Positions 1,416 to 5,292 of a stretch of DNA of 5,292 bases are shown here, one piece after another. The notes beneath the pieces were generated by a model. That model was not told the DNA's origin. It was given only the letters and a program-made list of their open reading frames with translations, and made no database searches. Both the position numbers and the translations under genes were made by a program. Position 1 is the first letter of the stretch. Every line of letters starts with the position of its first letter. The DNA lies in the IMG/VR virus record IMGVR_UViG_2690316086_000011. One strand, written 5' to 3'. This DNA is from a virus (lineage: Duplodnaviria > Heunggongvirae > Uroviricota > Caudoviricetes).

Positions 1416-1749
1416 GATAAAAACGCTGCATCTGGTCCCGCGTGAAGGGATGCAGGTGAGTGAGAAGCCGTCGGTGGTGAGGGTGCGGTTTGGTGACGGT
1501 TATGAACAGCGCCGCCCCACAGGGCTGAATCCTCAACTGAAGACGTTTCAGGCGGTGTTCCGGGTGACGGATGAGTCAACCCGGCGCTGGCTGGATGAAT
1601 TTTTATCCTGGCATGGTGGTTACCGTGCCTTTTTGTGGCGACCGCCGAAACATAACCGGACGGTGAGGGTGGTGTGCCGGGAGAGGAGTGTCACGGATAA
1701 CGCCCGGTACAGTGATTTCAGTTGCACGATAGAGCAGGTGGTGAACTGA
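1408..1749 (+). CDS. M: Minor tail protein M (lambda gpM-like), 113 aa, GTG start.
   Basis: ORF with GTG start at 1408, preceded by GGAGGA at 1395-1400 (7-nt spacing), overlapping the H stop by 8 nt. Size is close to lambda gpM (about 109 aa). Shares recalled conserved blocks with lambda gpM (VRFGDGY, HGG, FLW, C-terminal EQVVN). Confidence 0.85.
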   Translation: MAEIKTLHLVPREGMQVSEKPSVVRVRFGDGYEQRRPTGLNPQLKTFQAVFRVTDESTRRWLDEFLSWHGGYRAFLWRPPKHNRTVRVVCRERSVTDNARYSDFSCTIEQVVN

Positions 1750-3196: not shown

Positions 3197-3774
3197 ACAC
3201 GGCAGCGGAAGCCATCCGTGCCCTGTCGATGCAGATGCCGGGATTCCGCCGTCAGATGAACGAAGGCTGGTACCAGATACGTATTCGCGGTGAGGACACG
3301 GCACCGGAGGCGGTGTACGCCCGTCTTCACGAACAGCTGGGTGAGGGAACGGTCATCCACATTGTGCCGCGACTGGCCGGGGCCGGAAAAGGTGGACTGC
3401 AGATTGTGCTGGGGGCGGCAGCCATCGTGGGCTCTTTCTTCACTGCCGGGGCAACGATGGCGTTATGGGGTTCAGCCCTGGCAGCCGGTGGTTTTTCTGC
3501 CACCACGATGCTGTTTTCACTGGGGGCCAGCATGATACTGGGTGGTGTGGCTCAGATGCTGGCCCCGAAGGCTAAAGTACCGGAGTACAAAAGCACGGAT
3601 AACGGCAGACAGAACACGTACTTTTCCTCGCTGGATAACATGATTGCCCAGGGGAACCCGATGCCGGTGCCTTACGGTGAAATGCTGGTTGGCTCACGGC
3701 GAATCTCCCAGGACATCAGTACCCGTGATGAAGGCGGTGACGGGAAGGTGGTGGTTATCGGGCGGCAGGCATAA
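3094..3774 (+). CDS. I: Tail tip assembly protein I (lambda gpI-like), 226 aa.
   Basis: ATG at 3094 with GGGAGAGG at 3075-3082 upstream. Size is close to lambda gpI (about 223 aa). Recalled conserved blocks are present: ARICLxGDLQRFGRR, IHIVPRxAGA, QIVLGAAAI, FSLGASMxLGGVAQMLAPKA, NTYFSSLDNM, GDGxVVVIGR. Central Gly/Ala-rich hydrophobic stretch. Stop TAA at 3772-3774. Confidence 0.87.
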   Translation: MATTNAFCLASPPLARICLHGDLQRFGRRLSLYVNTAAEAIRALSMQMPGFRRQMNEGWYQIRIRGEDTAPEAVYARLHEQLGEGTVIHIVPRLAGAGKGGLQIVLGAAAIVGSFFTAGATMALWGSALAAGGFSATTMLFSLGASMILGGVAQMLAPKAKVPEYKSTDNGRQNTYFSSLDNMIAQGNPMPVPYGEMLVGSRRISQDISTRDEGGDGKVVVIGRQA

Positions 3775-3810
3775 AAGCGAAAAAATCCCGCAGTGACCGA
3801 AGGCTGCGGG
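3775..3810 (-). terminator. Candidate intrinsic terminator on the minus strand: 7-bp perfect stem (CCCGCAG 3787-3793 / CTGCGGG 3804-3810), 10-nt loop, with ATTTTTTCGCTT following on the minus strand.
   Basis: Perfect inverted repeat read directly from the sequence. The T-run is only on the minus-strand 3' side (plus strand shows GCGAAAAAAT upstream of the stem); the plus-strand 3' side is A-rich. No known minus-strand gene is upstream of it, so function is uncertain. Confidence 0.35.
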
Positions 3811-3944
3811 AACAGAAAATGAAGATTAACCACAGGGAGTTTTGTTTTTATTGGCCCGAAAAAACTGTAACGCCCGGGAATGATATCTGCCACGGGGGCG
3901 TACAGAAAATGTGAAGATATTCAGAATTTTTATTCAGTCATGAT

Positions 3945-3978
3945 ACAGGCATCCTCCGGGATGCCTGTTGTTTTTGTG
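3945..3978 (+). terminator. Candidate rho-independent terminator on the plus strand: 10-bp perfect GC-rich stem (ACAGGCATCC 3945-3954 / GGATGCCTGT 3959-3968), 4-nt loop TCCG, followed by TTGTTTTTGT.
   Basis: Perfect inverted repeat with a downstream T-tract read directly from the sequence. It sits 32-65 nt upstream of the J start codon inside the expanded I-J spacer. Confidence 0.5.
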
Positions 3979-4009
3979 CGTAACAGTTATCACAGTAAAG
4001 GGTGAGACA

Positions 4010-5292
4010 ATGGGCAAAGGTGGCGGCAAGGCGCACACGCCGGTTGAGGCAAAGGACAATCTTAAGTCCACGCAGATGATGAGCGTGATTGATGCCATTG
4101 GTGAAGGGCCGATTGAAGGTCCGGTGAAGGGGCTGCAGAGTATCCTGGTGAACAAAACCCCGCTGACGGACACGGACGGTAATCCTGTGATACATGGTGT
4201 GACAGCGGTCTGGCGCGCCGGGGAGCAGGAGCAGACACCACCTGAAGGCTTTGAGTCCTCCGGGGCGGAAACCGCACTGGGCGTGGAAGTGACGAAAGCA
4301 AAGCCGGTGACGCGCACCATTACGTCCGCGAACATTGACCGCCTGCGGGTCACCTTCGGGGTGCAGTCACTGTTGGAGACCACCTCAAAGGGCGACCGTA
4401 ATCCCTCTTCTGTCCGACTGCTGATTCAGTTGCAGCGTAACGGTAACTGGGTGACGGAAAAGGATGTCACCATTAACGGCAAGACCACCTCACAGTACCT
4501 GGCGTCGGTGATTCTGGAGAATCTGCCTGAGCGGCCCTTTAACATCCGGATGGTCCGGGAGACGGCGGACAGCACCACGGACCAGCTGCAGAACAGAACG
4601 CTGTGGTCGTCATACACCGAAATCATCGATGTGAAACAGTGCTACCCGAACACGGCCATTGTGGGGCTGCAGGTGGATGCGGAGCAGTTCGGCGGTCAGC
4701 AGATGACGGTGAACTACCATATCCGCGGTCGCATCATCCAGGTGCCGTCAAACTACGACCCGGAAAAACGCACGTACAGCGGTATCTGGGACGGCAGTCT
4801 GAAACCGGCATACAGCAACAACCCGGCCTGGTGTCTGTGGGACATGCTGACCCACCCGCGCTACGGGATGGGGAAACGCCTGGGGGCCGCGGACGTGGAC
4901 AAATGGGCGCTGTATGCCATCGGGCAGTACTGTGACCAGCGTGTTCCGGACGGCTTCGGAGGGACAGAGCCGCGGATGACGTTTAATGCGTACCTGTCAC
5001 AGCAGCGTAAGGCGTGGGACGTTCTCAGTGATTTCTGCTCGGCGATGCGCTGTATGCCGGTATGGAACGGCCAGACGCTGACGTTCGTTCAGGACCGCCC
5101 GTCGGATGTGGTGTGGCCGTACACCAGCAGCGATGTGGTGGTGGATGATAACGGCGTGGGGTTCCGCTACAGCTTCAGCGCCCTGAAGGACCGCCACACG
5201 GCGGTGGAGGTGAATTACACCGACCCGCAGAACGGCTGGCAGACCTCCACGGAACTGGTGGAAGACGCCGCTGAGATAAAGCGCGTAGCGGC
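4010..5292 (+). CDS. J: Tail tip/central tail fibre protein J (lambda gpJ-like), N-terminal approx 427 aa; runs off the 3' end of the window.
   Basis: ATG at 4010 preceded by AAAGGGTGAG (Shine-Dalgarno-like). N-terminus MGKGGGKAHTPVEAKDNLKSTQ and extensive downstream blocks (TPPEGFESSG, RTITSANIDRL, TSKGDRNPS, NWVTEKD, KTTSQYLASV, DSTTDQLQN, TLWSSYTEIIDVKQCYPNTA, NNPAWCLWDMLTHPRYGMGKRLGAADVDKWALY, FCSAMRCMPVWNGQTLTFVQDRPSD) closely resemble lambda gpJ as recalled. It is absent from the supplied ORF track only because no stop codon occurs before the window edge. Confidence 0.93.
   Translation, partial: MGKGGGKAHTPVEAKDNLKSTQMMSVIDAIGEGPIEGPVKGLQSILVNKTPLTDTDGNPVIHGVTAVWRAGEQEQTPPEGFESSGAETALGVEVTKAKPVTRTITSANIDRLRVTFGVQSLLETTSKGDRNPSSVRLLIQLQRNGNWVTEKDVTINGKTTSQYLASVILENLPERPFNIRMVRETADSTTDQLQNRTLWSSYTEIIDVKQCYPNTAIVGLQVDAEQFGGQQMTVNYHIRGRIIQVPSNYDPEKRTYSGIWDGSLKPAYSNNPAWCLWDMLTHPRYGMGKRLGAADVDKWALYAIGQYCDQRVPDGFGGTEPRMTFNAYLSQQRKAWDVLSDFCSAMRCMPVWNGQTLTFVQDRPSDVVWPYTSSDVVVDDNGVGFRYSFSALKDRHTAVEVNYTDPQNGWQTSTELVEDAAEIKRVA

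What the first reader, a model, noticed from the sequence alone, without database searches (positions are those of the whole stretch)
3775..4009. Expanded AT-rich I-J spacer flanked by two oppositely oriented terminator-like hairpins
The I-J intergenic region here is 235 nt and clearly more AT-rich than the flanking genes, whereas in lambda as I recall it is about 60 nt. It holds a perfect 7-bp stem-loop (3787-3810) with a U-tract only on the minus strand, and a perfect 10-bp stem-loop (3945-3968) with a plus-strand U-tract just upstream of J. Two strong hairpins inside an otherwise tightly coupled late operon suggest a small inserted unit (moron-like small transcript or sRNA, or a regulated termination point needing antitermination to reach J) rather than a simple spacer. 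It is the only part of the window not explained by the tail-gene model.
Basis: partly seen in the sequence, partly recalled or inferred. Interest (0 to 1): 0.5.

Follow-up and report, generated by a model that had tools for sequence, protein, structure and literature searches.

The report
Prophage small-RNA gene between tail genes
The long gap between tail genes I and J holds a variant of a known, Hfq-bound prophage small RNA (PasB / EcOnc22-24) read backwards against the tail operon, followed by a separate terminator-like hairpin just before gene J, so it is a real but largely already described feature.

Summary
In detail: a 235-nt, AT-rich I-J spacer (GC 0.44 vs 0.58) with two strong hairpins. 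The two hairpins do not bound one unit.

Hairpin A (3787-3810) with its minus-strand U6 tract is the terminator of a PasB-family sRNA gene, transcribed antisense to the tail operon (about 3857->3780). PasB (EPEC E2348/69) and EcOnc22-24 (EHEC Sakai) lie at this junction and are Northern-confirmed and Hfq-dependent. A covariance model built without window-type alleles hits the window full length (53 bits, E 7e-9). The window allele is about 74% identical to named PasB.

New inferences, both untested:
- A conserved -10 (TAnnnT) sits where the published PasB 5' end predicts it.
- An invariant CRP-like site (TGTGA-N6-TCAGA) lies at fixed spacing, about -60.5, which is class-I-like geometry.

Hairpin B (3945-3968, plus U-tract) lies outside the sRNA gene. 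It is a plus-strand terminator-like element. Lambda, HK97, a Serratia phage and another E. coli spacer type carry non-homologous counterparts directly before J.

In some relatives the junction carries a reverse-oriented sodC moron that replaces the PasB promoter block and hairpin B.

Verdict: new allele of a known kind; modest interest.

The parts
3780..3857 (-). Predicted PasB-family sRNA transcript (about 78-80 nt; 5' end 3857 +/- 2, 3' end in the U-tract near 3780).
   Evidence: E2348/69 PasB (NC_011601 1466343->1466261, minus) maps by alignment to window 3858->3779. Covariance model R1, built from 12 other alleles, hits 3861->3774 on the minus strand at 53.3 bits, E 7e-9, full length.
3787..3810 (-). 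Hairpin A: the intrinsic-terminator stem-loop of the sRNA (7-bp stem CCCGCAG/CUGCGGG).
   Evidence: Fold -14.0 kcal/mol, z -2.7. The published PasB Northern probe AATCCCGCAGTGATCGCGGAGCT shares its first 13 nt with the window plus strand at 3784-3796, which puts the RNA on the minus strand. Two stem pairs carry compensatory changes in L065/L079.
3780..3786 (-). Terminator tail A-UUUUUU, the likely Hfq proximal-face site.
   Evidence: Read directly from the sequence. The A-run is >=90% conserved in alignment A2.
3819..3830 (-). Best-conserved single-stranded stretch of the sRNA body (RNA GUUAAUCUUCAU), the probable seed.
   Evidence: Conserved columns in A2 and A3 and unpaired in the fold. The Zhu et al. 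2026 preprint places the PasB seed just upstream of the terminator.
3864..3869 (-). Putative -10 hexamer TACAGT (minus strand, 3869->3864).
   Evidence: The pattern TAnnnT holds in every allele (TACAGT, TAATGT, TAGTGT and others): 3869, 3868 and 3864 are invariant across 14 non-redundant alleles. In E2348/69 the reported PasB 5' end lies 6 nt downstream of the homologous hexamer. This is inference; no transcription start data exist for this allele.
3887..3892 (-). Putative weak -35 TGGCAG (3892->3887), 17-nt spacer to the -10.
   Evidence: T and G at hexamer positions 1 and 3 are invariant (3892, 3890); divergent alleles read TTGCAG or TTGCGC. It falls below the consensus-scan threshold.
3907..3928 (.). 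CRP-like site AAATGTGAAGATATTCAGAATT (core TGTGA 3910-3914, N6, TCAGA 3921-3925; centre 3917.5).
   Evidence: It is the only match to TGTGA-N6-TCANA in the window, against 0.01 expected. Both half-sites are invariant while the N6 varies among alleles. The centre-to-(-10) spacing is identical in 33 of 35 spacers, putting the centre at about -60.5. The site is retained when the DNA beyond ~3933 is replaced. CRP binding is untested.
3945..3968 (+). Hairpin B: plus-strand intrinsic-terminator-like stem-loop (10 bp, loop UCCG).
   Evidence: Fold -19.3 kcal/mol, z -5.4; top terminator-like hit in the window. One pair switches U-A to C-G in 12 of 33 spacers. All one-sided changes are G.U on the plus strand and would be C.A mismatches on the minus strand.
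3969..3978 (+). U-rich tail of hairpin B (UGUUUUUGUG), ending 32 nt before the J start codon at 4010.
   Evidence: Conserved in A2.

Best explanation
The 235-nt I-J spacer is a reverse-oriented, non-coding moron followed by a separate pre-J terminator.

(1) sRNA gene. The minus strand encodes a PasB / EcOnc22-24-family sRNA of about 80 nt. It starts near 3857, reads towards gene I, and ends at hairpin A and its U6 tract, 6-12 nt from the I stop codon. In homologous prophages this RNA is made in the repressed lysogen, depends on Hfq, and pairs in trans with core and virulence mRNAs. Pairing probably uses the conserved single-stranded GUUAAUCUUCAU stretch, while the 5' half differs between alleles.

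(2) Promoter (inferred). It has a conserved TAnnnT -10 and a weak -35. An invariant CRP-like site is centred about 60.5 bp upstream, like the class I arrangement at lac. I infer that cAMP-CRP activates the sRNA when glucose is absent.

(3) Hairpin B. It is not part of the sRNA gene. It works in plus-strand (late-operon sense) RNA as an intrinsic terminator and/or 3' stabiliser directly before J. Q-modified polymerase would read through it during lytic growth. It would stop non-antiterminated transcription from entering J in the lysogen.

Shown here: the anatomy, homology, position and conservation. Taken from the literature for homologues: expression and Hfq dependence. Inferred: start site, CRP control and the role of hairpin B.
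For: Position:
- PasB lies in the same I-J spacer of E2348/69, antisense to the tail genes, directly after the I stop.
- The Hfq-CRAC peaks EcOnc22/23/24 of Sakai all fall in I-J spacers, antisense to the tail operon.
- The paper's coordinates are offset from NC_002695.2. After correcting by the +136 to +143 nt offset, calibrated on AgvB1 and AsxR, the peaks lie on the PasB-homologous RNA.

Homology:
- The whole-spacer alignment with E2348/69 has a mean column identity of 88% as the aligner reports it.
- The CM hit is 53.3 bits, E 7e-9, full length, from a model that excludes window-type alleles.

Expression of homologues:
- PasB is 83 nt on Northern, has baseMean 482-1082 against 5-15 for I and J, and log2FC -6.8 in delta-hfq.
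- EcOnc22 is ~85 nt and is destabilised in delta-hfq.

Promoter and CRP:
- The -10 positions are invariant, and the published 5' end lies 6 nt downstream of the hexamer.
- The CRP-like motif is unique in the window (0.01 expected).
- Spacing to the -10 is fixed in 33 of 35 spacers, although the sequence between is variable and the transcribed part has indels.
- PasB is higher in overnight static LB than in DMEM. The CRP-repressed sRNA Spf shows the opposite pattern in the same data.

Hairpin B:
- There is compensatory and plus-strand-only G.U variation.
- Non-homologous hairpin plus T-run elements sit directly before J in lambda, HK97 (annotated 'putative terminator'), Serratia phage Bigdog and JJ1887-type spacers.

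Moron character:
- GC is 0.44 against 0.58.
- Lambda lacks the ~175 nt.
- In some relatives a reverse-oriented sodC occupies this junction. It replaces the sRNA's putative promoter region and hairpin B but keeps the PasB-like 3' tail and hairpin A.
- HK97 carries forward and reverse morons at its equivalent junction.
Against: - There are no expression, 5'-end or 3'-end data for this particular allele. It is only 72-74% identical to the two alleles studied experimentally.
- The promoter is weak by consensus, and the standard scan finds none in 3500-4300.
- Three invariant bases between the putative -35 and -10 (3881, 3883, 3884) are not explained by this promoter. They would fit an alternative -10 (TATCAT; TATAAT in E2348/69), which would put the CRP-like site at about -44.5, an unusual position.
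- The whole block 3908-3978 is conserved, not just the CRP half-sites. Part of that conservation may reflect recent common descent or another function.
- The higher PasB level in static overnight LB is equally compatible with stationary-phase or low-oxygen control.
- Hairpin B is absent from the sodC-type spacers, and Salmonella phage S135 has only a 9-nt spacer. It is therefore not required for J expression.
- Assigning EcOnc22-24 to PasB rests on a coordinate offset calibrated at 1.27 and 1.94 Mb, not at 2.2-2.9 Mb.
Confidence: 0.8

Rival explanations
1. Both hairpins act on the late tail-operon transcript as a regulated termination or attenuation point, so that J is reached only by Q-antiterminated polymerase. 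No separate small transcript matters.
For: Hairpin B is a strong plus-strand terminator-like element 32-42 nt before J. Its variation is plus-strand compatible. Analogous hairpins precede J in lambda, HK97 and Bigdog.
Against: Hairpin A has no plus-strand U-tract, and in homologues it is the 3' end of an abundant minus-strand RNA. The ~150 nt between the hairpins contains conserved minus-strand promoter features. This reading can therefore hold only for hairpin B, where it overlaps with the best explanation.
Confidence: 0.15
2. The sRNA acts mainly in cis. It is fully complementary to the I-J part of the late mRNA, so it pairs with that mRNA during induction and directs its cleavage or alters J expression. 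Trans targets would be secondary.
For: The gene is antisense to the late operon at a fixed position next to the I stop in every allele. The site is kept even where a sodC moron has been added.
Against: RIL-seq recorded 37 trans interactions for PasB in a non-induced lysogen, where I and J are almost silent. Nothing here tests cis pairing.
Confidence: 0.15
3. The spacer is a decaying remnant of a lost protein-coding moron. Its hairpins are leftover terminators with no present function.
For: Relatives carry a sodC gene at the same junction with the same hairpin A next to I. The RNA body itself folds no better than shuffles (z -0.19).
Against: The spacer occurs in 1330 of 5426 complete E. coli genomes, with up to 10 copies each. 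Stems are kept by compensatory changes. Promoter positions are invariant and their spacing is fixed. Homologues are abundantly expressed and Hfq-bound.
Confidence: 0.04
4. The spacer encodes a small protein: the plus-strand ORF 3819-3914 (31 aa, MKINHREF...).
For: An ATG ORF exists, and its first four codons (ATGAAGATTAAC) are conserved.
Against: The start codon is ACG in many alleles, and the reading frame and length differ between alleles (22 aa in E2348/69, 31 aa here). The conserved 12 nt coincide with the probable sRNA seed on the other strand.
Confidence: 0.02

Closest known systems
PasB (E2348CN_0006), Hfq-dependent prophage sRNA of EPEC E2348/69 (Pearl Mizrahi et al. 2021, PMC8550237; Zhu, Shabalina & Storz 2026 preprint, 10.64898/2026.05.13.724894)
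   Same: Same junction (I stop to J start), same antisense orientation, same terminator stem and U-tract, same conserved pre-terminator stretch, and the same promoter block and CRP-like site. Spacers are of similar length (240 vs 235 nt).
   Different: RNA identity is only 74%, and the 5' half differs (GGGCCAAUAAAAACAAAACUCCCUGUGG here, GCCCGAGUAACAAAAACAACUCCUUCACAUU in PasB). Targets may therefore differ. The two papers do not discuss a promoter, CRP, the sodC alternative or hairpin B.
EcOnc22 / EcOnc23 / EcOnc24, Hfq-CRAC sRNAs of EHEC Sakai prophages Sp15 (Stx1), Sp14 and Sp11 (Tree et al. 2014, PMC4104026; review PMC7873438)
   Same: They lie in I-J spacers, antisense to the tail operon, are ~85 nt and are destabilised without Hfq. 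The window spacer is 99.6-100% identical to spacers of Stx1a- and Stx2a-converting phages.
   Different: The Sakai allele is 72% identical to the window RNA. Equating EcOnc22-24 with the PasB family is my inference from corrected coordinates; I did not find it stated in the papers I read, and Pearl Mizrahi's table lists no EHEC homologue for PasB.
Morons of lambdoid phages, especially HK97 gp22 / gp23 ('moron' and 'reverse moron') upstream of J (GenBank AF069529 annotation; Cumby et al. 2012, PMC3594210)
   Same: Extra DNA at the junction before J, GC different from its neighbours, its own terminator, reverse orientation, expression from the repressed prophage, and a plus-strand terminator immediately before J.
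   Different: The cargo is a non-coding sRNA rather than a protein gene. HK97's inserts are not homologous to it.
Class I CRP-dependent promoters (lac P1, CRP site centred at -61.5)
   Same: A near-consensus TGTGA-N6-TCAnA site, a weak -35, and a site centre about 60.5 bp upstream of the inferred start.
   Different: The position is inferred from a -10 match and from a coverage-based 5' end in a homologue. One half-site deviates (TCAGA). No binding or genetic evidence exists.

Membership tests
PasB / EcOnc22-24 prophage sRNA family | Encoded in the tail I-J intergenic spacer of lambdoid prophages, antisense to the tail operon, directly downstream of the I stop. | tested here: met
   Window 3780-3857 on the minus strand, compared with E2348/69 1466261-1466343 on the minus strand between I (ends 1466255) and J (starts 1466496). 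Sakai Sp11, Sp14 and Sp15 spacers show the same arrangement.
PasB / EcOnc22-24 prophage sRNA family | Sequence and structure homology to family members. | tested here: met
   CM R1, built from 12 alleles without window-type sequences, scores 53.3 bits, E 7e-9, covering model positions 1-83 of 83 on the minus strand. Pairwise identity is 74% to PasB and 72% to the Sakai type.
PasB / EcOnc22-24 prophage sRNA family | 3' Rho-independent terminator with a U-tract (the Hfq-binding module). | tested here: met
   Hairpin A at -14.0 kcal/mol plus A-U6. The stem is conserved, with two covarying pairs.
PasB / EcOnc22-24 prophage sRNA family | Discrete ~83-85-nt transcript, Hfq-dependent, made in the lysogen. 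| not testable with these tools
   Known for the E2348/69 and Sakai alleles. The length predicted here is 78-80 nt, from the -10 to the U-tract.
Moron (independent transcription unit inserted in a phage operon) | Extra DNA relative to related phages, with deviating base composition. | tested here: met
   235 nt against 60 nt in lambda and 9 nt in Salmonella phage S135. GC 0.443 against 0.582.
Moron (independent transcription unit inserted in a phage operon) | Own promoter and own terminator. | tested here: inconclusive
   The terminator is clear (hairpin A). The promoter rests only on conserved TAnnnT and T.G positions and on the homologue's 5' end. The consensus scan finds none.
Class I CRP-activated promoter | CRP consensus site (TGTGA-N6-TCACA) on the correct helical face near -61.5. 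| tested here: inconclusive
   The core matches 9 of 10 positions and the motif is unique in the window. The centre lies between -59.5 and -61.5, depending on the true start. The start site is not mapped for this allele.
Class I CRP-activated promoter | CRP-cAMP binding, and crp/cya- or glucose-dependent expression. | not testable with these tools
   Only indirect evidence: PasB is higher in static overnight LB than in DMEM, opposite to the CRP-repressed Spf.
Intrinsic (Rho-independent) terminator, for hairpin B | GC-rich stem-loop immediately followed by a U-rich tract on the transcribed strand. | tested here: met
   10-bp stem with 6 GC pairs, 4-nt loop and tail UGUUUUUGUG. Actual termination was not tested.
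AgvB / AsxR anti-sRNAs and other Rfam families | Match to the Rfam covariance models. | tested here: not met
   No Rfam 15 hit at E <= 1 anywhere in the window. The anti-sRNAs lie at the PR' moron site, not in the tail operon.

The most novel reading that the evidence does not exclude
The I-J junction of E. coli lambdoid prophages carries a compact, two-strand regulatory cassette. It has three proposed properties.
- A cAMP-CRP-activated Hfq sRNA gene whose 5' (targeting) half has diversified into many alleles. Because genomes hold up to ten copies, polylysogens would carry a carbon-status-controlled sRNA multigene family wired into the host Hfq network.
- The sRNA may also pair in cis with late tail mRNA.
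- It is combined with a pre-J terminator that recurs, in non-homologous form, across unrelated J-encoding siphophages and restricts transcription of the host-range gene J to antiterminated polymerase.
Probability: 0.25. Interest if true: 0.5.

Novelty: new member of a known kind. Interest (0 to 1): 0.3.

Why it matters
Genome annotation leaves this spacer blank in about a quarter of complete E. coli genomes, including O157:H7 and Stx-converting phages. Yet it holds an expressed, Hfq-bound regulator.

Several points follow from recognising it:
- It links two separately named sets of sRNAs, EcOnc22-24 in EHEC and PasB in EPEC.
- It shows that the family has many alleles with different 5' halves.
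- It gives a concrete, testable regulatory hypothesis: cAMP-CRP control from a class-I-like site.

The recurrence of a terminator-like hairpin directly before J in unrelated phages is a small, general point about tail-operon architecture. It could be tested with existing Term-seq methods.

Tried and rejected
- Rfam scan of the whole window at E <= 1: no hit. The RNA is therefore not AgvB, AsxR, STnc100 or any other curated family.
- AgvB/AsxR-type anti-sRNA: rejected. Those lie at the PR' moron site.
- Protein-coding reading of ORF 3819-3914: rejected. The start codon and frame are not conserved.
- Cra/LacI-type operator reading of TGAA-N4-TTCA: rejected. The centre is variable among alleles (GATA, GAAA, GAGT, TAAA), whereas such operators need a conserved central CG.
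- Alternative minus-strand promoters were considered: P1 (TATCAT, 3885->3880; TATAAT in E2348/69) and P3 (ATGACT-16-TATCTT). P1 is not excluded as a second start, but it does not fit the published 5' end. P3 would give a ~130-nt RNA, which is not seen on Northerns.
- A plus-strand promoter feeding hairpin B, or divergent use of the CRP-like site: no conserved -10 was found.
- Hairpin B as a minus-strand terminator: rejected. There is no U-tract on that strand, and its one-sided substitutions would break pairing there.
- The uncorrected Tree et al. coordinates put EcOnc22-24 on the minus strand of hairpin B. Calibration with AgvB1 and AsxR showed a +136 to +143 nt offset relative to NC_002695.2.
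- EcOnc35, EcOnc36 and EcOnc54 were checked as possible further copies. None is at an I-J junction.
- The genome-contig scan with the J N-terminus found nothing.
- The pattern scan found the module only in E. albertii and in a few tiny, contamination-like contigs.
- The plasmid search added nothing.

Full report
**Observation.** The window holds lambdoid tail genes (end of H, then M, L, K, I), followed by a gap and the start of J. The I ORF ends at 3774 and the J ATG is at 4010, so the spacer is 3775-4009, 235 nt. Its GC is 0.443 against 0.582 for the rest of the window. Lambda's I-J spacer is 60 nt.

Hairpin A (3787-3793 paired with 3804-3810) is a perfect 7-bp stem. It is followed by A-U6 on the minus strand only. 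Hairpin B (3945-3954 paired with 3959-3968) is a perfect 10-bp stem followed by UGUUUUUGUG on the plus strand. Both fold far better than shuffles: A on the minus strand is -14.0 kcal/mol (z -2.7), and B on the plus strand is -19.3 kcal/mol (z -5.4). B is the best terminator-like site in the whole window.

**What hairpin A belongs to.** The spacer is widespread.
- It occurs in 147 phage records, mostly Stx1a- and Stx2a-converting phages, at up to 100% identity.
- It occurs in 1330 of 5426 complete E. coli genomes, with up to ten places per genome, and nothing is annotated there.

The literature search led to PasB, an sRNA found by Hfq RIL-seq in EPEC E2348/69 (PMC8550237). Table S6 of that paper gives NC_011601, minus strand, 1466343->1466261 (83 nt), between E2348C_1436 and E2348C_1437, and the Northern probe AATCCCGCAGTGATCGCGGAGCT. 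Those two genes are I (ending 1466255) and J (starting 1466496), so PasB sits in a 240-nt I-J spacer directly after the I stop.

The first 13 nt of the probe equal the window plus strand at 3784-3796. The RNA is therefore on the window's minus strand, and hairpin A with its U-tract is the terminator. The two spacers align along their whole length, and PasB maps to window 3858->3779.

As a formal test I built a covariance model from 12 alleles that excluded all window-type sequences. It hits the window's minus strand at 3861->3774, full length, at 53.3 bits and E 7e-9. No Rfam family matches anywhere in the window.

**Earlier record in EHEC.** Table S2 of Tree et al. 2014 (PMC4104026) lists three homologous Hfq-CRAC peaks: EcOnc22 (Sp15, the Stx1 phage; ~85 nt on Northern; destabilised in delta-hfq), EcOnc23 (Sp14) and EcOnc24 (Sp11). 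A 2021 review still lists their targets as unknown.

In NC_002695.2 all three coordinates fall inside I-J spacers, on the strand antisense to the tail genes. Taken at face value they would lie over hairpin B. The paper's coordinates are offset from the current record, however. AgvB1 is displaced by +139 to +143 nt and AsxR by +136 to +138 nt. With that offset the peaks fall on the PasB-homologous RNA. I therefore equate EcOnc22-24 with the PasB family. This is an inference: the offset was calibrated at 1.27 and 1.94 Mb, not at the loci themselves.

**Expression of homologues.** In E2348/69, I and J have baseMean 5 and 15. pasB has 482 (DMEM, mid-log) and 1082 (overnight static LB), with log2 fold changes of -6.8 and -2.4 in delta-hfq and 37 RIL-seq interactions. 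The unit is therefore transcribed from the repressed prophage, as a moron should be (definition in PMC3594210). The window allele is a distinct variant. It is 74% identical to PasB and 72% to the Sakai type. The terminator and the stretch GUUAAUCUUCAU are conserved, but the 5' half differs.

**Promoter and a CRP-like site (inferred).** I aligned 33 distinct spacers from IMG/VR, E2348/69 and the window and reduced them to 14 non-redundant alleles.
- -10 element: on the minus strand, positions 3869, 3868 and 3864 are invariant, giving TAnnnT (TACAGT here). In E2348/69 the published 5' end lies 6 nt downstream of the equivalent hexamer. This puts the window start at about 3857.
- -35 element: a weak -35 (TGGCAG, 17-nt spacer) has invariant T and G.
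- Upstream block: the most conserved block of the whole spacer begins upstream of the -35 and contains AAATGTGAAGATATTCAGAATT. The pattern TGTGA-N6-TCANA occurs once in the window, against 0.01 expected.
- Pattern of variation: the half-sites are invariant while the N6 varies between alleles.
- Spacing: the distance from the site centre to the -10 is identical in 33 of 35 spacers. Yet the sequence between is variable and the transcribed region carries indels. The centre lies at about -60.5 (range -59.5 to -61.5), close to the -61.5 of lac-type class I promoters.
- Module boundary: in JJ1887-type spacers, homology to the window ends just after this site (about 3933). The site therefore travels with the sRNA module.
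- Expression pattern: PasB is higher in glucose-free overnight LB than in DMEM, whereas the CRP-repressed Spf is fivefold higher in DMEM in the same study.

Several caveats apply. Stationary phase or low oxygen would explain the expression pattern equally well. Three invariant bases (3881, 3883, 3884) fit an alternative -10 instead. The consensus promoter scan finds nothing. Neither PasB paper discusses promoters or CRP.

**Hairpin B.** It lies upstream of the sRNA promoter, on the other strand, so it is not part of the sRNA gene.
- One stem pair switches U-A to C-G in 12 of 33 spacers.
- All one-sided substitutions (three pairs, five sequences) give G.U on the plus strand. They would give C.A mismatches on the minus strand. 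This argues that the element works in plus-strand RNA.
- The minus strand has no U-tract after it.
- Non-homologous hairpin plus T-run elements sit directly before J in four other cases: lambda (ACCGCC-TGCG-GGCGGT-TTTGTCATTT, 24 nt before the ATG), HK97 (annotated 'putative terminator', 12 nt before J, beside a 'moron' and a 'reverse moron'), Serratia phage Bigdog and JJ1887-type E. coli spacers (-28.5 kcal/mol).
- It is missing from sodC-type spacers and from Salmonella phage S135, whose spacer is 9 nt.

My reading is a recurrent, dispensable pre-J intrinsic terminator and/or 3' stabiliser. Q-modified polymerase would override it. It would block non-antiterminated transcription from entering J in the lysogen. 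None of this was tested.

**The junction as a moron site.** Among 80 IMG/VR loci with near-identical J N-termini, I-J spacers fall into four length classes: 187, 234-260 (the majority), 342 and 851-852 nt.

The 851-nt class carries a minus-strand Cu/Zn superoxide dismutase gene (sodC) with its own hairpin terminator. The PasB-like 3' part and hairpin A are retained between sodC and I. The CRP-like block and hairpin B are absent. Prophage sodC-F genes of O157:H7 are described in PMC2569942.

Its cargo is a known sRNA.

**Rejected readings.** The plus-strand ORF 3819-3914 is not conserved. A Cra/LacI-type operator does not fit the variable centre of the motif. The module is confined to Escherichia in the species-level genome collection: E. 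albertii plus a few tiny contigs that look like contamination. This agrees with the 2026 preprint.

**Verdict.** The feature is real and largely explained. It is a new allele of a known prophage sRNA family plus a common type of pre-J terminator. The CRP-like operator with class-I-like spacing, the link between EcOnc22-24 and PasB, and the recurrence of pre-J terminators are modest new points, and all need experiments.

Noticed in passing
L005:650-1500 (also L006-L008, L024, L030-L032, L035, L037, L039-L041, L043, L046, L049): In 18 related viral contigs the I-J spacer is 851-852 nt and holds a minus-strand periplasmic Cu/Zn superoxide dismutase gene (sodC) with its own hairpin terminator (L005 810-835). 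The PasB-like 3' part and hairpin A remain between sodC and I. The CRP-like block and hairpin B are missing, so the sRNA tail there may be made by read-through from sodC or not at all.
   Followed up: partly
L083:1050-1236 (E. coli JJ1887; same class as L054, L059, L093): A 342-nt spacer class keeps PasB, its promoter and the CRP-like site. Everything beyond window position ~3933 is replaced with unrelated DNA containing a very strong two-way hairpin (AAAACCCCGGTATC-TGCT-GATACCGGGGTTTCTCTTT, -28.5 kcal/mol).
   Followed up: partly
Sakai NC_002695.2 versus Table S2 of PMC4104026: The sRNA coordinates published in 2014 are offset by about +136 to +143 nt from the current RefSeq record (calibrated on AsxR and AgvB1). 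Read uncorrected, EcOnc22-24 would be placed on the wrong element of the spacer.
   Followed up: yes
L105:2464-4059 (O26:H11 11368); L107 (Sakai Sp6): Some relatives carry a 1.6-kb insert between tail genes L and K, with two Arc-family repressor genes and an Ant antirepressor (an immI-like module). The Hfq peak EcOnc54 of Sakai lies in the equivalent Sp6 insert. The window itself has no such insert.
   Followed up: partly
L023:1255-1320 (and L027, L029, L038, L042, L052): In this class the I stop codon is lost and the I reading frame runs on through a shortened hairpin A (CCCGCA-GAGT-TGCGGG). This leaves an apparent spacer of 187 nt.
   Followed up: no
window 3881-3884: Three bases between the putative -35 and -10 (T3881, A3883, T3884) are invariant across 14 alleles. 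On the minus strand they read as part of TATCAT (TATAAT in E2348/69). This could be a second promoter or another protein-binding site, and the main model does not explain it.
   Followed up: partly
window 3919-3939: ATTCAG occurs twice, 13 nt apart (3919-3924 and 3932-3937), within the invariant block between the CRP-like site and hairpin B. The second copy is lost in JJ1887-type spacers. Its meaning is unknown.
   Followed up: no
L047:1242-1500 and L053:1241-1500 versus L020, L022 (alignment A2 columns 240-270): The J-proximal part of some spacers carries a variable number of CAGACAT-like 7-nt repeats just upstream of the J ribosome-binding site. The window allele has none.
   Followed up: no
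window 1610-1629: A plus-strand terminator-like hairpin (GGCATGGT-GGTT-ACCGTGCC followed by TTTTTGTGGC) lies inside the M gene reading frame.
   Followed up: no
L085, L088, L093 (contigs filed under Asaia platycodi, Parendozoicomonas haliclonae, Streptomyces flavalbus): Very short contigs (460-3408 nt) in assemblies of non-enteric bacteria carry E. coli prophage I-J DNA at 80-99% identity to the window. This looks like contamination of those assemblies.
   Followed up: no
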